Shown one piece after another: positions 55,190 through 60,829 of a stretch of 64,000 nt of DNA. The notes beneath the pieces were generated by a model, which saw only the letters and a program-made list of their open reading frames with translations, was not told where the DNA came from and searched no databases. Both the position numbers and the translations under genes were made by a program. The stretch is from the NCBI GenBank assembly GCA_026706895.1, contig JAPOXW010000020.1, positions 57,329 through 121,328 of the forward strand. Reading direction: 5' to 3'. Every line of letters starts with the position of its first letter. The first letter of the stretch is position 1. This stretch comes from Gammaproteobacteria bacterium. Lineage in GTDB: Bacteria > Pseudomonadota > Gammaproteobacteria > Poriferisulfidales > Poriferisulfidaceae.

Positions 55190-55510
55190 TCAGTTCAGCT
55201 GATGGTGGGTAATCTGGCTCTGATGGTGGTCTTTGCGTTTTTCCTTGTACTTGAGGATCTGTCGATCCAACTTCCCGGTCAGCGTGTCGATCGCTGCATA
55301 CATGTCGCTGTGTTCGGCGCGCGCGTGCATGTGGTGGCCCCGGACGTGCATGGTGGCTTCCGCGCGGTGCGTGTCGTGTTCGACCGCAAGCGTGATCTGG
55401 GTATTGATCACGTCATCGAAGTGACGGGTTAGGCGTTTAAATTTGGTGTGGATGTAATCGCGGAGCGGAGAGGTGATTTCTAGGTGGTGTCCGGTGAGTT
55501 TCAAGTTCAT
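55190..55510 (-). CDS. hpf: ribosome hibernation promoting factor
   Basis: MNLKLTGHHLEITSPLRDYI... YfiA/HPF fold; ATG 55510 preferred over the extended track ORF. Confidence 0.85.
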   Translation of the reverse strand: MNLKLTGHHLEITSPLRDYIHTKFKRLTRHFDDVINTQITLAVEHDTHRAEATMHVRGHHMHARAEHSDMYAAIDTLTGKLDRQILKYKEKRKDHHQSQITHHQLN

Positions 55511-55595
55511 AACAATACTTCCTCCGTGGCCCATCCATTATATACAGAGGGGAAGGGGTCTGGACACCCGGGCTGGAATCCGTCTGGGGTAGACT

Positions 55596-56477
55596 ATGAG
55601 CCGTTTTGGAATGTGTCCAATGCGCGAGGAATTCGGTGTGTCCGCGAAGAAGGCAGGTACATTCGCCTGGATCGTGACCGGTCTGGCGCTGGCGGCCGCA
55701 CCTCCGGCGCTGGCCGAATCCGCCTTGCACAAAGCGGCCCGCGCGGGAAATTTCGCGGAAGTGCAGAAACTGCTGGATTCAGGCGCGGACGTCAATTTAT
55801 TCAAGCAGGGCAAGACCCCGCTGCATCATGCGGCCCTGATTAATCCGAAACCCGAGGTTGTAGAGGCTTTGCTGGATGCCGGGGCCCAGGTGGGCGTGAA
55901 AGGGCATAACGACATGACGGCGCTGCATTTCGCGGTGGTCAACCCGACCCCGATGTCCGCACATCCGCAGTCGAACGTGGAAGCGGACAACAAATCAGGC
56001 GAGACGGCCCGGCGCCTGGAGGTGATCCAACTGCTGCTGGATGCTGGGGCGACGACGTATGCGAAGAACGAGGACGGCCTGACCCCCTTGCATCTGGCGG
56101 CGGGCCACTATTGGGATCCGGAGGTCGTGGACACGTTGCTGCTGGCGGGAGCATTCGTGGATGCAAGGGCCGAGAACGATGCGACCCCGTTGCATTTCGC
56201 GGCGGCCTTCAACGGAAACCCGGAGGTGACGCGATTGCTGCTGGATGCCGGGGCCGATGCGAACGCGCAGGATTCCGGGGGCCTGACGCCCCTGCATTTG
56301 GCGTCGCGCTTCAGGGGGTATGCGACGGTCGCACAGCTGCTGCTGGATGCGGGCGCGGACGTCAATGCGAAAGACCGCGAAGGCAAGACCCCGCTGGATT
56401 ATCACGCGGAGAGAGAAAACCCCAGTTGGCCCCAGGTTCTCGAGGATGTTGGCGGGAAATGCAACAGGAGCTGTTGA
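55596..56477 (+). CDS. secreted ankyrin-repeat protein
   Basis: signal peptide (AWIVTGLALAAAPPALA) then >=6 ANK repeats (G.TPLH.AA..G...V..LL.AGA); GC content like the host; probable start ATG 55620. Confidence 0.7.
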   Translation: MSRFGMCPMREEFGVSAKKAGTFAWIVTGLALAAAPPALAESALHKAARAGNFAEVQKLLDSGADVNLFKQGKTPLHHAALINPKPEVVEALLDAGAQVGVKGHNDMTALHFAVVNPTPMSAHPQSNVEADNKSGETARRLEVIQLLLDAGATTYAKNEDGLTPLHLAAGHYWDPEVVDTLLLAGAFVDARAENDATPLHFAAAFNGNPEVTRLLLDAGADANAQDSGGLTPLHLASRFRGYATVAQLLLDAGADVNAKDREGKTPLDYHAERENPSWPQVLEDVGGKCNRSC

Positions 56478-56561
56478 CGTACAGTGGACATTAACCTGAT
56501 TTTTAAAAATTTCACTACGCTGTGCAGGGATAAAAATCCGTATAAATATCGAGACTAGATG

Positions 56562-56978
56562 TTAATCAGATGTTTTAGTGCTTTTTTCTGCATCCAACAA
56601 GAATTCACAACATTCAAGAGTAAATTCTGCAATGCGTTCCATGTAAGCATCCATTTTTTCGCTACTGGCCTGAACCTGTTGCACCCAGAATTTGGCTTCT
56701 TTCCGGTATTCTTGTAATTGGTATTTTTTCTGGATGGTGTTTTTGGTTGTTTGAAGAAAAATTTCTCTTAAGGCTATCCGATCAATTCCAATTTCCGAGA
56801 AATGCTTGTGGTGGTGAACACGGTTACGGGCCTTTAGTTCCTCTTTGAACTCTTTGTTGAAATCATTAATGAAATCAGTGGCAAACTTCTTCACTCTACC
56901 TTTGGCATGTGCAGGCACTATATCTTTAAAGTACTCTTTGAGTCGCTGCTGGAACTGATAGCATCGACTAAAGTACAT
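56562..56978 (-). CDS. hypothetical protein (low GC), possibly the C-terminal part of a frameshifted gene
   Basis: 138 aa, Lys/Glu-rich helical, HHHKH; overlaps the next ORF by 61 nt in another frame; AT-rich islet. Confidence 0.35.
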   Translation of the reverse strand: MYFSRCYQFQQRLKEYFKDIVPAHAKGRVKKFATDFINDFNKEFKEELKARNRVHHHKHFSEIGIDRIALREIFLQTTKNTIQKKYQLQEYRKEAKFWVQQVQASSEKMDAYMERIAEFTLECCEFLLDAEKSTKTSD

Positions 56979-57304
56979 TTCACAGAATTGGTAATGTGGC
57001 TGCTACGAGTTACCGGAAGGTCTCGAAATGGATATCTTCGGAAGTAATACTCACATTCTTTTAATGAATTAATTATTAGATTTAGTTCTATATACCTTAC
57101 GGTGACTAAGTGCTGCTTTTCGACTTCCTCGGAAAAGTTGAATGCGCGCTCATACTTTTCGGTGTGGTTTGAGGCAATATCATCGAAAAATAATGTATGC
57201 TCGAACTTTTTTTCATTCCATTCTCTCCAGCCAGGATAGTCTTCCAAATCACGTATCCATCTTTGGATGGCCTCCGCTATCTGCGTCCGAGAAATATCTG
57301 TCAT
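56918..57304 (-). CDS. hypothetical protein (low GC), possibly the N-terminal part of a frameshifted gene
   Basis: 128 aa; last ~25 aa are Ser-rich out-of-frame-looking sequence; the downstream frame is open from a TAG at about 57003. Confidence 0.35.
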   Translation of the reverse strand: MTDISRTQIAEAIQRWIRDLEDYPGWREWNEKKFEHTLFFDDIASNHTEKYERAFNFSEEVEKQHLVTVRYIELNLIINSLKECEYYFRRYPFRDLPVTRSSHITNSVKCTLVDAISSSSDSKSTLKI

Positions 57305-57350
57305 TCCGAGCTTTGATGGGCTTGTTCAAAGGTTTGTATGGGAGGCTAAT

Positions 57351-57677
57351 CTATTCGGTGACGCGATAAACAAGTCTTTGCAAACTTCCGCTGACAATAT
57401 CAATCACGCTCGGGACAAGCACCTGCAGTTCCTGCAGACGCGTTCTGGAAGCAGCCATGACGATCACGGGTATAGGCAGCTTTTCCAGATTCTGCTGGTA
57501 TTCAATGCCTTGGTCGGCAGTGACAAACGCGTCAAACTTATGCATGGCTGCCTGTTGCAGCAGCGCGCCGTTCTTGCTTCCTGCCCAGCCCATTTGTTGG
57601 ACTGTGTGCAATTCGAACGATTCAGGAAAGAACGCCTTGATCTGTCTGGGAATGGACTCGTCAAGTAATAGTTTCAT
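57351..57677 (-). CDS. DUF5615-family PIN-like putative toxin
   Basis: 108 aa, MKLLLDESIP...FVTAD... PIN-like; immediately downstream of and overlapping a DUF433 gene. Confidence 0.65.
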   Translation of the reverse strand: MKLLLDESIPRQIKAFFPESFELHTVQQMGWAGSKNGALLQQAAMHKFDAFVTADQGIEYQQNLEKLPIPVIVMAASRTRLQELQVLVPSVIDIVSGSLQRLVYRVTE

Positions 57678-57885
57678 CCAGGCTCTCGACCAGCACTGCT
57701 TTTGCCTGATTCAGTACCTCGACCGCTTGGCTTCGCGAGACCGTGGGATGGTTGTCCAGAAACTCATCGATGGAGTCGCCTGCTTCCAGATATTCCATCA
57801 GGATGCGTACAGGAACCCGGGTGCCGGAGAAGACCGGCGTTCCACCAAGAATCTCGGCATCTTTGCTGATCACCGTATCTGTCAT
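57661..57885 (-). CDS. DUF433-family putative antitoxin
   Basis: 74 aa; ILGGTPVFSGTRVPVRILMEYLEAGDSIDEFLDNHPTVSRSQ is the DUF433 signature; 17-nt overlap with the DUF5615 gene. Confidence 0.65.
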   Translation of the reverse strand: MTDTVISKDAEILGGTPVFSGTRVPVRILMEYLEAGDSIDEFLDNHPTVSRSQAVEVLNQAKAVLVESLDETIT

Positions 57886-57979
57886 GGCTTATTCCTTGGC
57901 AAGCAATTATCAGATTATACGCCCGATTCTGGAGCGTCTGCTGATTGCCGCTTACCCGTGAATTCTTCGAAATTCTGTC

Positions 57980-58080
57980 TCAGAGCTGGAATTCTTCTCC
58001 TAGGTAAATCTCGCGTACTTGTGGATTTTCCACGATTTTCTCGCCTTTTTCCTCAGCGATTGACGTGCAGAGTACCTGTG
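57980..58080 (-). pseudogene. displaced duplicate of the lptB 3' end (gene-end remnant)
   Basis: reverse strand encodes ...SIAEEKGEKIVENPQVREIYLGEEFQL*, homologous to the true LptB C-terminus (...[28 protein letters not shown]); ~55 bp of ~85% nucleotide identity with 59043-59100. Confidence 0.55.
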
Positions 58081-58307
58081 GATAGTATGTGTTGCGGGAG
58101 CATCAGTGCAATCAGGCGGCAACTACATCACCAACCCCTCGTACATGAAACATATATAGACACGATATATAGATCTAACACTAGAAACTTTGTGTAGTGT
58201 GCACCATTTTCTGCTACAATTCGCATCTACTACCCCCGTCATTTCGCTGGCGGGCCGCAGGGTCTTAGGAAGAAATTCTTGAGGCCCTTTGCTTTATCTG
58301 GATGAGA

Positions 58308-58928
58308 ATGCGCACAGCCGTTTATATAGATGGATTCAACTTCTATTATGGGGCGGTAAAAGATACGGCCTATAAGTGGCTAGATTTCAAACAATTGTGC
58401 AAAATCATATTAAAACCACATCACAACATTACTTCTATTGTGTACTGAACGGCCAAAGTCAGATGGATGCCTGCAGACCCGGGTGCTCCTAGGCGACAAG
58501 CTACTTACTTCAACGCGATTAAATCTTATATTCCGGAATTGTCTATTATTCGTGGTCATTTTTTGGAAACTAAATTGCTTTGCAGGCCAGTCAACCCGAA
58601 GCACGGGAATCTGATTGAGGTTTTCCGTACAGAAGAGAAAGGATCTGATGTTAATCTGGCAGTGCACATGGTAAATGATGCGCATAAAGACAAATTCGAC
58701 TGCGCGATAGTTATCAGCAATGACAGTGATTTGGCAGAAGCAATGCGGATCGTGAAAAACGAATGCGGGAAAATGGTCGGGCTTTTCACGCCTTGGAGGA
58801 GGTATGCATCAAAACAACTTATGATGCATTCAAGCTTCCAACGAACGATTCGTAAAAGCAGTTTAGCGAAAAGCCAACTTCCGAATCCTATACCAGGGAC
58901 AAAAATTTATAAACCTAAGCAATGGTAA
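58308..58928 (+). pseudogene. NYN-domain (PIN-like RNase) gene interrupted by an in-frame TGA
   Basis: MRTAVYIDGFNFYYGAVKDTAYKWLDFKQLCKIILKPHHNITSIVY-TGA(58446-58448)-TAKVRWMPADPGAPRRQATYFNAIKSY...EKGSDVNLAVHMVNDA...VISNDSDL; both halves in one frame give a full NYN domain; low GC. Confidence 0.6.
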
Positions 58929-59042
58929 ATGCAAATGGCACTTACTGCGAAAGGACTTGGCATTGAAAACTGTCCCGAATTGAATTCAATGCGAGAGCGA
59001 ATAAGAAAACCCCAAGAATAAAACGTAAGTGCAGTTTTTTCC

Positions 59043-59768
59043 TCAGAGTTTGAATTCAGCTCCCAGGTAAGTCTCGCGTACTTGCGGATTTTCCAGGATC
59101 TCGTCGGGTTCGCCCTCGGCTATGATGCTGCCCTCGGAGAGGATGTAGGCACGGCGGCAGATGCTGAGGGTCTCGCGCACATTGTGGTCGGTGATGATGA
59201 TGCCGATGCCGCGCTCCTGCAATTGCTGGATGATCGACTTGATGTCGGCCACGTGCAGGGGGTCCACGCCGGCGAACGGTTCGTCCAGCAGGATGAAGGC
59301 GGGGTCCATCGCCAGCGCGCGGGCGATCTCGACCCTCCGGCGTTCTCCGCCCGACAGCGAAAACCCGCGGCTGTCGCGGATTTCGGCAATGGAGAATTCC
59401 TCAAGAAGAAGTTCCAGGCGCGCTTCCCGTTCTTCCTTAGACAGGGACAGTTGCTCAAGCACACCCAAGACGTTCTCCTCCACCGTCAGGCGGCGGAACA
59501 CGGAAGGTTCCTGGGGGAGGTAGCCGATGCCCCGGCGGGCACGCTGGCTCATGGACAGCCCGGTGATGTCCTGGGTGTTCAGGAAGATCTGGCCCCGGTC
59601 GCAGGGCACCAGCCCCGTGATCATGTAGAAGCAGGTCGTCTTGCCTGCACCGTTCGGGCCAAGCAGCCCGACCACCTCGTGGTCGCTTGCGTGCAACTCG
59701 ACCTCCGAGACGACCTGTCGGTCGCGGTAGGACTTGCACAGGTCCTGCGCTTCGAGCGTGGCCATCAA
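59043..59768 (-). CDS. lptB: LPS export ABC transporter ATP-binding protein LptB
   Basis: GPNGAGKTT Walker [16 protein letters not shown] signature, [11 protein letters not shown] Walker B; 241 aa. Confidence 0.9.
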
Positions 59769-60829
59769 TCAGAGTCGGTCTTCAGGCGGATTCGCACCCG
59801 CTCGGAGGGCTTCCGGGTGACGGGAGTCTCCACGCGTTCCTCGTCGATCAGGTAGACGATTTCGTGTCCCGTGACCTGGTGCGCGTCGACGCGCAGATTG
59901 ACGTCTTTCTTCAGGATCGCCTTGCGCTGCGGAATCTGGTAGAAGATGCTGCCGGCGCTTGCGCGGAGCGGTTTCCCGGAATCGAGGATCTGGGTCCAGC
60001 GGGCGTTGCCTTCGGCGTGCAGGGCCTGGACCCGGTCGCCTTCGGCGTGCACCGTGAGCCGGTCGGCGAGCAGGACCATGTCTCCTTGCGTGGCACGCAC
60101 GTCCCCGTGGTAGACGCTGACCTCCTTCTGGGCGTCCCACTCCATCCGTTCCGCGCTCAGGTCGAGCGTTTCCTCCGAATTGTCCGCGGCGTGTGCGGTG
60201 CCGAACGCTTCCTTCAGGATTTTCTCCAGCAGCGCCTGCGTGGGCTTTTCCGTGGACGGAGGGAACTGGCGGGCCTGCACGTCCTGCTGCAGCTGGCCGC
60301 CCGAGCCGTCCAACTGGTAGTCCAGCCCGGTGCCGCGCATCACCGCATGGGATTGGCTGAGCACGACCGCCTGCTCGCTGTAGACTCGTCCGTTCTCCGC
60401 GTCCAAGGTCAGCGATTCGCCGCGCATCAGGACCGGGGAATAGTCCGGGGGGTCGAGCAAGAGTTCCACGTTTTCATCCAGGGTGACCCGGGTCTCCCGG
60501 ATTTCCCCGTGCCGAGCCGAGGCCGAGGAATTTTCGAACGCGGGGTCGAGCCAATGCAAACGGGGGGCATCGAGGTTCAGGATTTCGCTGCCGAGATACT
60601 GGTCCAGCCGTTCGGCGACGACTTCGTAAAGCAGTTCTCCCTTCAGGTCCCGGATCCGGTGGCGTACCTGCAGGTAGCTGTTCTCGGGGACCCCTTTGTC
60701 AGGAGCCGAAGCGGTTTCCTCCGGGGTCGGGGTTCGGGTCAGGGCCCACAGGCCGATGACGACGACCAGCGCGAGCAGCAGGGTCAGCAGCCGGCGGAGG
60801 TTCATTATTTTCTGAGGATCCAGTCGCAC
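59765..60829 (-). CDS. apparent LptC-LptA fusion protein (LPS transport bridge)
   Basis: single 354-aa ORF; N-terminal TM anchor plus LptC-like domain (aa ~1-190), then an LptA/OstA-N-like domain ([20 protein letters not shown]...GNARWTQ...[15 protein letters not shown]); no stop or frame change between them; probable start ATG 60805. Confidence 0.55.

What the first reader, a model, noticed from the sequence alone, without database searches (positions are those of the whole stretch)
57980..58080. Displaced diverged duplicate of the lptB 3' end: signature of a site-specific insertion into the gene end
The last ~30 codons of lptB occur twice, once as the functional terminus (59043-59140) and once ~1 kb away at 57980-58080 on the same strand. 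The second copy is diverged (~85% nucleotide identity over the best 55 bp; protein ...SIAEEKGEKIVENPQVREIYLGEEFQL* versus ...[28 protein letters not shown]). The NYN-containing segment lies exactly between the two copies. This is the pattern left when an element integrates into the 3' end of a gene while supplying a replacement end, as in tRNA-targeting islands. No integrase remains, so the element is a remnant.
Basis: seen in the sequence. Interest (0 to 1): 0.55.

Follow-up and report, generated by a model that had tools for sequence, protein, structure and literature searches.

The report
Dead copy of lptB gene end
A decayed second copy of the last ~30 codons of the essential gene lptB sits 1 kb downstream of the real gene end; it is a recombination scar in a strain-variable slot for toxin-antitoxin and defence genes in a sponge-symbiont bacterium, and I found no sign that an integrase-carrying mobile island made it.

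Summary
lptB (minus strand, 59043-59765) ends ...[17 protein letters not shown] second in-frame copy of the end (...SIAEEKGEKIVENPQVREIYLGEEFQL*) lies at 57980-58062. It is 86% identical over the last 57 nt, and a profile of clade lptB ends extends it to 58090 (E 1e-14). A NYN/HEC-09 pseudogene lies between the copies.

Relatives from sponge metagenomes (LptB 81-100% identical) show the lptB-to-hpf gap, where rpoN normally sits, is strain-variable. Versions are empty (30 nt to a convergent ankyrin gene), EF-hand gene, AbiE toxin-antitoxin, NYN, or a methyltransferase. The window's closest relative has the empty site. Three other haplotypes carry their own decayed lptB-end relics, each beside the same conserved ~115-nt element.

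The integrase reading is not supported:
- No recombinase gene lies within 6-10 kb in any haplotype.
- There is no identical core.
- Relic lengths differ (about 104 versus 67 nt).
- NYN and AbiE lie next to lptB without a significant relic in other lineages.
- 0 of 77 other gammaproteobacteria duplicate the lptB end.

The best reading is a one-sided homologous plus illegitimate join between alternative slot versions, like Rhs/T6SS "C-terminal displacement". Interest is modest.

The parts
59043..59765 (-). Functional lptB (LPS export ABC transporter ATPase), ending ...[16 protein letters not shown]
   Evidence: Pfam ABC_tran plus BCA_ABC_TP_C. The exact protein is on record in 3 assemblies and a source names it LPS export ABC transporter ATP-binding protein.
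59043..59146 (-). Functional copy of the repeated lptB 3' end (last ~104 nt including the stop codon)
   Evidence: It corresponds to profile positions 17-120 matched by the relic. Its last 36 nt are identical to those of the empty-site strain L088.
58929..59042 (.). 114-nt spacer between the lptB stop and the NYN stop; homology to empty-site strains breaks exactly after the lptB stop codon
   Evidence: only 64% identical to the 79-nt spacer of L102
58302..58928 (+). NYN-domain gene (PADLOC candidate defence family HEC-09), a pseudogene with an in-frame TGA at 58446-58448 replacing a conserved Cys
   Evidence: Pfam NYN E 5.6e-8. PADLOC HEC-09 E 2.6e-27. Intact 206-aa homologues at 78-85% identity all have Cys at the position of the stop. 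The same stop is present in L003 from another sample.
58185..58302 (+). Conserved ~115-nt element ('seg'): a promoter-like TGcTACAAT, a 7-bp hairpin, and a 15-bp hairpin followed by a T-run directly before the NYN start codon
   Evidence: It is 86-88% identical to copies in L085/86, L091, L092 and L102, and in relic-bearing haplotypes it always lies next to the lptB relic. Structure. No Rfam match. Single copy in the window.
58091..58184 (.). AT-rich ~95-nt filler between seg and the relic, with no detectable homologue in related loci
   Evidence: No hits in the relatives compared. Absent from the seg-relic junction of L085 and L091.
57980..58090 (-). Relic of an lptB 3' end (allele ...EEFQL*): confident over 57980-58062/3, probable up to 58090, decayed upstream with stop codons
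57969..57979 (-). 11 nt after the relic's stop codon (GACAGAATTTC), homologous to the sequence after the functional lptB stop in L084/L087 (GACGGAGTTTC / GACGGAATTTC)
57351..57885 (-). Intact DUF433 / DUF5615 (PIN-like) gene pair, a putative toxin-antitoxin module
   Evidence: Pfam. The DUF433 part is 89% identical over 191 nt to a fragment lying directly after the functional lptB of L085/86.
56562..57304 (-). Two overlapping ORFs of unknown function in the lowest-GC tract (37-44% GC)
   Evidence: no significant Pfam, PADLOC or NCBIfam family
56490..59042 (.). The whole strain-variable slot as it is filled in this window; the closest relative L088 has 30 nt here
55596..56477 (+). Ankyrin-repeat gene, convergent with lptB; the right-hand conserved border of the slot in most close relatives
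   Evidence: Pfam Ank; synteny

Best explanation
The segment 57980-58090 is a non-functional, decaying relic of a second lptB 3' end. The gap between lptB and hpf holds rpoN in most Gammaproteobacteria. This sponge-symbiont clade has lost rpoN from that place, and the gap is now a strain-variable slot that circulates in the population in alternative versions: empty, EF-hand gene, AbiE toxin-antitoxin, NYN/HEC-09, DUF433/DUF5615, methyltransferase.

Inferred mechanism. The window's version arose when two alternative versions were joined by a recombination that was homologous on one side only, in lptB or in ank/hpf, and illegitimate on the other. The illegitimate joint fell about 104 nt before the stop codon of one version's lptB. 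This is homology-facilitated illegitimate recombination, the process proposed for 'C-terminal displacement' in Rhs and T6SS effector loci.

Consequences. lptB is presumably essential, as in other Gram-negative bacteria (general knowledge), so only products that keep one complete end survive. The other end is left 1 kb away as a dead direct repeat and then decays by G/C-to-A/T changes, indels and stop codons. Later ordinary homologous recombination between strains, in which the relic itself can serve as a homology patch, reshuffles the cargo.

Shown: the relic, the empty sites, the parallel relics, the variable slot and the absence of recombinase genes. Inferred: the one-sided-homology mechanism and its polarity. 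I cannot tell which end was resident and which incoming.
For: - The relic is allelic to clade lptB ends, including 11 nt of post-stop flank of the L084/L087 type.
- Empty sites exist in L088-90 and L096-99. L088 is the closest relative on both flanks, at about 97%.
- Parallel relics occur in L085/86 (67 nt, E 7e-14, with the same 30-nt spacer to ank as in empty sites), L091 (50 nt, E 1e-6, truncated) and L092 (last ~15 nt). Each has decayed differently, through missense changes or deletions.
- The junction position is not fixed: -104 nt plus 95 nt of filler here, against -67 nt in L085.
- The cargo next to the functional end is an ordinary chromosomal neighbour of lptB in other lineages without a significant relic. 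L102 has lptB-NYN-seg-hpf, with NYN 81% identical, against 81-87% for ptsN, lptCA and lptB (hpf 91%). L105 has lptB-AbiE-hpf, and AbiE divergence tracks lptB divergence.
- lptB end alleles tend to go with the cargo (xxFRL with AbiE, EEFQ[LF] with EF-hand).
- Nucleotide diversity in the last 60 nt of lptB is 0.147, against 0.03-0.11 in the other 60-nt windows, among 7 close strains.
- No recombinase gene appears in any haplotype.
- The mechanism and the resulting pattern are described for T6SS and Rhs loci (PMC5361080).
Against: - The donor and recipient haplotypes cannot be identified, so the illegitimate joint is inferred and not observed, and microhomology at the joint cannot be checked.
- The conserved element seg lies next to the relic in every relic-bearing haplotype. 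That could instead mark a conserved end of a mobile unit.
- All relic-bearing haplotypes may descend from one ancient event followed by deletions. In that case 'variable junction positions' is weaker evidence than it looks.
- Natural competence, or any other DNA-uptake route, is unknown for this uncultured symbiont.
- Elevated diversity at the lptB end could partly reflect relaxed constraint on the last five residues.
Confidence: 0.6

Rival explanations
1. This is site-specific integration. A mobile unit whose attachment site mimics the lptB 3' end integrates into lptB, supplies a replacement end and displaces the resident end. The recombinase has been lost or acts in trans from elsewhere in the genome, and seg is the conserved arm of the attachment site.
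For: - Direct repeats of the target end flank the NYN segment here and the AbiE island in L085/86.
- Empty sites exist.
- A conserved ~115-nt element always lies on the inner side of the relic, with different cargo beside it: NYN here, AbiE elsewhere.
- L085 and L091 share the same seg-relic junction.
Against: - No recombinase gene lies within 6-10 kb in any of about 10 haplotypes.
- The longest exact match between the copies is 13 nt here and 11 nt in L085, and these stretches are also constrained by coding.
- Relic lengths differ, 104 versus 67 nt.
- There is no conserved sequence after the functional stop codon.
- seg is simply the region upstream of NYN in L102, which has no significant relic.
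- The seg hairpins depend on several G-U pairs, which favours a function as RNA on one strand over a DNA recombination site.
- seg gave 0 hits in viral contigs.
- None of 77 other gammaproteobacterial loci duplicates the lptB end.
Confidence: 0.2
2. There was one ancient event, and everything else is deletion and allele shuffling. A single old rearrangement of any mechanism created lptB-NYN-seg-filler-relic. The AbiE-bearing, EF-hand-only and empty versions then derive from it by deletions, including recombination between the two lptB-end repeats, and by inter-strain homologous exchange. On this view the window keeps the most ancestral form, and the lptB end was never hit repeatedly.
For: - seg is shared by all relic-bearing haplotypes, and NYN plus seg has co-diverged with the core genes.
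- L085 and L091, whose LptB proteins are 98% and 89% identical to the window's, share one junction.
- Relic divergence (about 15%) is similar to intergenic divergence between strains (4 of 30 nt in the spacer).
- Possible but non-significant relic traces exist in L102 and L105 (p about 0.04 each).
Against: - It needs several precise deletions that end exactly at a stop codon.
- The relics sit in two different downstream contexts: a 30-nt spacer to ank in L085, and an EF-hand-type flank in the window, L091 and L092.
- It does not itself explain how the first duplication arose, so it complements the best explanation and does not replace it.
Confidence: 0.15
3. The relic is an assembly chimera of co-existing strains, or a chance or paralogous match such as another branched-chain-type ABC ATPase C-terminus.
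For: The window comes from a metagenome assembly of a strain-diverse population. The C-terminal motif belongs to a widespread Pfam family, BCA_ABC_TP_C.
Against: - Two assemblies give the identical structure, and a contig from another sample confirms the lptB-NYN junction.
- Analogous relics are present in contigs of 0.5 and 1.85 Mb (L091, L086).
- The relic is decayed upstream, so it is not an intact strain-variant lptB.
- The relic shares post-stop flank with clade lptB alleles.
- The shared 22-mer was never found in shuffles, and the profile match has E 1e-14.
Confidence: 0.02

Closest known systems
C-terminal displacement in Rhs, CDI and T6SS effector loci, attributed to homology-facilitated illegitimate recombination (Kirchberger et al. 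2017, PMC5361080; Jackson et al. 2009, as cited there)
   Same: A conserved 5' part of a gene serves as the homology anchor. An incoming block brings a new 3' end plus downstream genes. The old 3' end is pushed downstream as an orphan in direct orientation. No integrase is involved. The resulting arrays are then spread by ordinary homologous recombination.
   Different: Here the gene is a housekeeping LPS-transport ATPase, not a polymorphic toxin. The two ends encode nearly the same peptide, so no functional diversification follows. The displaced piece is 67-104 nt with no linked immunity gene, and it simply decays. The cargo is unrelated to the anchor gene.
Integrase-mediated genomic islands that integrate into the 3' end of tRNA, tmRNA or protein genes and restore the end
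   Same: The topology matches: a functional end, cargo, then a displaced copy of the end in direct orientation. Empty sites occur in relatives.
   Different: There is no integrase in any haplotype and no identical core. Relic lengths vary and the element arm next to the functional end is not conserved. The 'cargo' lies beside lptB as an ordinary neighbour in related lineages.
Defence and toxin-antitoxin hotspots between conserved core genes
   Same: A slot bounded by core genes (lptB and ank/hpf) holds different small defence or toxin-antitoxin modules (AbiE, HEC-09-like NYN, DUF433/PIN-like, methyltransferase) in closely related strains, and is sometimes empty.
   Different: The left border lies inside the coding 3' end of an essential gene, which leaves gene-end relics. 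The slot is the former position of rpoN.
Integron cassette arrays (attC-bounded cassettes, including arrays without an integrase)
   Same: Small promoterless or toxin-antitoxin cargo units lie next to a conserved ~100-nt hairpin-forming element. Integrons are also the comparison raised in PMC5361080.
   Different: There is no intI. I saw no attC-type R'/R'' core sites in seg (inspection only). seg occurs once per locus and looks like a promoter plus RNA hairpins with a T-run.

Membership tests
Integrase-mediated integrative island targeting a gene 3' end | A tyrosine or serine recombinase gene at one end of the island, or its pseudogene | tested here: not met
   Precomputed Pfam calls for all genes within 6-10 kb on either side in the window's contig and about 10 related haplotypes list no integrase or recombinase; the only related gene is one IS605-type TnpB in L091. 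Pfam, PADLOC and NCBIfam scans of the slot ORFs found none.
Integrase-mediated integrative island targeting a gene 3' end | Identical core sequence in both flanking direct repeats | tested here: not met
   The longest exact match is 13 nt (CAAGTACGCGAGA) in the window and 11 nt in L085, read by eye from the printed sequences. Overall identity is 86% over 57 nt in the window and about 80% in L085. Old age could have eroded a core, so this does not exclude the family on its own.
Integrase-mediated integrative island targeting a gene 3' end | The same crossover position in all members | tested here: not met
   Relics match the profile from position 17 (window), 54 (L085/86) and 51 (L091). In the window, 95 nt of unrelated filler lies between seg and the relic.
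Integrase-mediated integrative island targeting a gene 3' end | An uninterrupted (empty) target site in relatives | tested here: met
   L088-90 and L096-99 have the lptB stop, 30 nt, then the ankyrin gene stop.
Integrase-mediated integrative island targeting a gene 3' end | An excised circular form or attP junction | not testable with these tools
   This needs raw reads of the metagenomes. A 20-mer from seg gave 0 viral hits and only 2 chance hits in JGI metagenome contigs.
Homology-facilitated illegitimate recombination / C-terminal displacement | A displaced 3' fragment of the anchor gene downstream, in direct orientation and non-functional | tested here: met
Homology-facilitated illegitimate recombination / C-terminal displacement | Homology to alternative haplotypes on one side and an abrupt non-homologous joint on the other | tested here: inconclusive
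   Homology to L102 runs from lptB through NYN to seg and stops at 58209. The filler at 58091-58184 has no homologue, and then the relic begins. The parental haplotypes are not available, so the joint itself and any microhomology cannot be verified.
Homology-facilitated illegitimate recombination / C-terminal displacement | The incoming block exists elsewhere as an ordinary chromosomal neighbourhood of the anchor gene | tested here: met
   L102 has lptB-NYN-seg-hpf and L105 has lptB-AbiEii-AbiEi-hpf. Divergence of the cargo tracks that of the core genes.
Homology-facilitated illegitimate recombination / C-terminal displacement | A route for uptake of linear DNA (competence, transduction or conjugation) | not tested
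   I did not look for competence genes, and the organism is uncultured.
Integron cassette / attC | An intI gene nearby, attC core sites and repeated attC units | tested here: not met
   No intI in the gene calls. seg is single-copy in the window and in each locus. Its hairpins depend on G-U pairs and end in a T-run. The attC core motifs were checked by eye only.
Ancient lptB paralogue or tandem gene duplication | A relic more diverged than the alleles within the clade, with its own flanks | tested here: not met
   The relic is 89% identical over 70 nt to L087's functional end plus its 11-nt post-stop flank.

The most novel reading that the evidence does not exclude
The lptB 3' end would be the dedicated attachment site of a family of small cassettes that carry no integrase (AbiE, NYN/HEC-09, DUF433 toxin-antitoxin). 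In this reading their conserved ~115-nt end (seg) is recognised by a recombinase encoded elsewhere in the symbiont genome. That would be an integron-like cassette system anchored in an essential gene, and it would repeatedly rewrite the last codons of LptB.
Probability: 0.08. Interest if true: 0.65.

Novelty: new member of a known kind. Interest (0 to 1): 0.3.

Why it matters
The relic gives a dated, sequence-level record of how a variable defence and toxin-antitoxin slot is rebuilt in an uncultured sponge symbiont with a reduced genome. The recombination border lies inside an essential gene. Only products that keep a complete lptB end survive, and dead gene-end copies are left behind as markers of past joins. 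This explains why near-identical LptB proteins in this clade differ mainly in their last five residues. It also extends the 'C-terminal displacement' pattern beyond polymorphic toxin genes. For annotation, it warns that a duplicated gene end does not by itself indicate an integrase-type island. It does not reveal a new molecular machine.

Tried and rejected
1. 'The last 17 codons of the functional lptB are foreign because they use low-GC codons.' I dropped this. All clade alleles use similar codons there, and the last 36 nt are identical to the empty-site strain L088.

2. A third lptB-end copy at the ankyrin side of the slot, which tandem accretion would predict. None was found.

3. GTDB genome scan with LptB. 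It did show that rpoN follows lptB in 66 of 80 loci and that 0 of 77 loci duplicate the lptB end.

4. Scans of viral and JGI metagenome contigs for a 20-mer from seg. There were 0 viral hits and 2 metagenome hits; the latter share only the 20-mer within unrelated sequence.

5. Rfam scan of 55400-59400. Nothing relevant turned up.

6. Relic traces in L102 and L105. They are only marginal, p about 0.04 each, and not significant by profile.

7. Family assignment of ORFs 56562-57304. No significant family was found.

8. A literature search for lptB as an integration site found nothing pertinent.

Full report
**1. What is in the window**

lptB lies on the minus strand at 59043-59765. Upstream of it are kdsD, kdsC and a fused lptC-lptA gene. 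Reading downstream from lptB towards lower coordinates, the order is:
- a 114-nt spacer;
- a convergent NYN-domain gene (58302/58308-58928, plus strand);
- a ~115-nt conserved element that I call seg (58185-58302);
- ~95 nt of AT-rich filler;
- the lptB-end relic (57980-58090, minus strand);
- a DUF433/DUF5615 (PIN-like) gene pair (57351-57885, minus strand);
- two overlapping unknown ORFs (56562-57304, minus strand);
- a convergent ankyrin-repeat gene (55596-56477, plus strand);
- hpf, ptsN and rapZ.

The tract from about 56480 to 59095 has 37-52% GC in a genome of about 65% GC. The NYN gene matches the PADLOC candidate defence family HEC-09 (E 2.6e-27). It is a pseudogene, because a TGA at 58446-58448 replaces a Cys that is conserved in all close homologues.

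**2. Check of the observation**

The relic reads in frame as TSIAEEKGEKIVENPQVREIYLGEEFQL*, and upstream of that the frame contains stop codons. Identity to the functional end, anchored at the stop codon, is 86% over 57 nt. A 22-mer shared by the two copies occurs nowhere else in the window and in none of 100 shuffles. A profile of ten clade lptB ends matches the relic over positions 17-120 with E 1e-14, which places it at 57980-58090. Shuffle tests support homology to -84 nt (p 0.001-0.007) and are marginal beyond that.

Two assemblies reproduce the arrangement with 0 mismatches over 5 kb, though they may come from the same biosample. A contig from another sample reproduces the lptB-NYN junction with 1 SNP.

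**3. Relatives**

The GTDB scan returned only distant LptBs, at 66% identity or less. The protein search found a graded series of relatives at 70-100% identity, mostly from sponge-associated metagenomes. Their contigs all share kdsD-kdsC-lptCA-lptB ... hpf-ptsN-rapZ. None of them has rpoN. In contrast, rpoN follows lptB in 66 of 80 other gammaproteobacterial loci and is absent from the whole 64-kb window.

The gap is strain-variable:

| Loci | LptB identity to the window | Content between lptB and hpf |
|---|---|---|
| L088-90 | 100% (rounded; one residue differs) | empty: lptB stop, 30 nt, ank stop |
| L096-99 | 96% | empty, same structure |
| L084, L087 | 98% | EF-hand gene, ank |
| L085/86 | 98% | DUF433 fragment, AbiEii/AbiEi, seg, relic, ank |
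| L092 | 95% | AbiE, seg, stub of relic, EF-hand (truncated), 520-aa ankyrin protein, ank |
| L091 | 89% | AbiE, seg, partial relic, EF-hand, TnpB, ank |
| L102 | 89% | NYN (intact), seg; no ank |
| L104 | 85% | partial AbiEii, methyltransferase, unknown gene |
| L105 | 81% | AbiEii/AbiEi only |

**4. The relic is a clade lptB end, and it has parallels**

The window's relic continues for 11 nt past its stop codon with the sequence that follows the functional lptB of L084/L087.

In L085/86 a 67-nt relic ([21 protein letters not shown] 7e-14) is followed by the same 30-nt spacer and ankyrin gene that follow the functional lptB in empty-site strains. L091 keeps about 50 nt of its relic (E 1e-6). 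L092 keeps only the last ~15 nt plus the EF-hand-type flank. Each relic has decayed in its own way, so they are not under selection.

In all four haplotypes seg lies on the inner side of the relic.

The window's flanks are closest, at about 97% on both sides, to the empty-site strain L088. Homology to L088 stops exactly after the lptB stop codon on one side and about 12 nt past the ankyrin stop on the other.

**5. What seg is**

In the window and in L102, seg directly precedes the NYN start codon. It contains:
- a TGnTAnAAT motif resembling an extended -10;
- a 7-bp hairpin;
- a 15-bp hairpin followed by a T-run.

Several stem positions are G-U pairs, and the changes seen on one side of a pair keep the pairing. 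This asymmetry between strands points to an RNA-level role, such as a leader, attenuator or short sRNA of about 80 nt, and not to a DNA recombination site. There is no Rfam match. seg is single-copy in the window and in each locus.

In the AbiE haplotypes seg persists beyond the AbiEi promoter and operator palindrome. AbiE therefore occupies the place that NYN holds in the window.

**6. Mechanism**

Six results argue against an integrase-type island:
- No recombinase gene lies within 6-10 kb in any haplotype.
- No identical core exists. The longest exact match is 13 nt here and 11 nt in L085.
- Relic boundaries differ, about -104 nt plus filler here and -67 nt in L085.
- The sequence after the functional stop codon differs in every haplotype.
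- NYN-seg and AbiE are ordinary neighbours of lptB in L102 and L105. Their divergence tracks that of the core genes: NYN 81% against ptsN 81.5%, lptCA 81% and lptB 87%; AbiE 69-72% against lptB 82-84% for the outgroup.
- None of 77 other gammaproteobacteria duplicates the lptB end.

The simplest account is a join between two alternative slot versions. The join was homologous on one side and illegitimate on the other, with the illegitimate end inside one version's lptB 3' end. Selection on lptB keeps one intact end. This is the homology-facilitated illegitimate recombination model proposed for T6SS effector and Rhs 'C-terminal displacement' (PMC5361080).

The polarity cannot be decided from these data. 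Either the lptB-NYN-seg block entered a strain of the EF-hand/ank type, or an ank-bearing fragment with a broken lptB end entered a NYN-type strain.

Later homologous exchange, in which relics can serve as homology patches, explains three further observations:
- the indel borders that fall at stop codons;
- the partial linkage of end alleles with cargo;
- the elevated diversity of the last 60 nt of lptB, 0.147 against 0.03-0.11 in the other 60-nt windows.

**7. Rivals**

| Explanation | Confidence |
|---|---|
| One-sided homologous plus illegitimate join (best explanation) | 0.6 |
| A recombinase acting in trans, with seg as an attachment-site arm | ~0.2 |
| One ancient event followed by deletions and shuffling; complements the main explanation | ~0.15 |
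| Assembly chimera, chance match or paralogue; excluded by the evidence | ~0.02 |

**8. Novelty and interest**

The scar pattern is known from polymorphic toxin loci and from integrative islands. Here it affects a housekeeping LPS-transport gene at the former rpoN position in a sponge symbiont, and it comes with a clear series of empty and filled haplotypes. It is a new instance of a known kind of genome-evolution scar and not a new system. Interest is 0.3.

Noticed in passing
window 55534-59043, and L084-L105: rpoN is missing from its usual place between lptB and hpf in this whole clade, and from the 64-kb window. It follows lptB in 66 of 80 other gammaproteobacterial loci. The vacated gap has become the variable slot.
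   Followed up: partly
window 58185-58302 (+): A conserved ~115-nt element holds a promoter-like TGcTACAAT, two hairpins and a T-run directly upstream of NYN. It is retained in AbiE haplotypes that lack NYN and is 86-88% identical across lineages whose lptB genes are about 87% identical. It may be a short sRNA or an attenuator leader. No Rfam family matches it.
   Followed up: partly
window 58302-58928 (+): The NYN/HEC-09-like candidate defence gene is inactivated by a single nonsense change (conserved Cys to TGA at 58446-58448). The same change is present in a second sample.
   Followed up: yes
window 59765-60829 (-): LptC and LptA are encoded as one fused 346-354-aa protein (Pfam LptC plus LptD_N/LptA) in the window and in all clade relatives.
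   Followed up: no
window 56562-57304 (-): Two overlapping ORFs of 128 and 138 aa, in different frames, lie in the lowest-GC tract (37-44% GC). No family matches them, and they may be one frameshifted foreign gene.
   Followed up: partly
window 59043-59102 (-), and P0001-P0039: LptB proteins that are 93-100% identical differ mainly in their last five residues (AEFKL, AEFRL, TEFKL, EEFRL, EEFQL, EEFQF, EGFKL and others). Nucleotide diversity in the last 60 nt is 0.147, against 0.03-0.11 in the other 60-nt windows of the gene.
   Followed up: partly
L084-L091, about 6-8 kb upstream of lptB (between the steroid-dehydrogenase-like gene and the MMPL gene): This is a second strain-variable slot. Some relatives carry a Fic/DUF4172 gene or a RelB/YafQ toxin-antitoxin pair there. 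The window's contig has neither.
   Followed up: no
L091 13959-15209: An IS605-family TnpB gene sits inside the lptB-hpf slot of one relative. It is the only transposition-related gene seen in any slot haplotype.
   Followed up: no
window 58019-58045 (+): On the antisense strand of the relic, point changes have produced a 7-pair hairpin (TTGTGGA ttt TCCACGA) followed by a T-run, which the scan calls terminator-like. The functional copy looks less well paired there (by eye).
   Followed up: no
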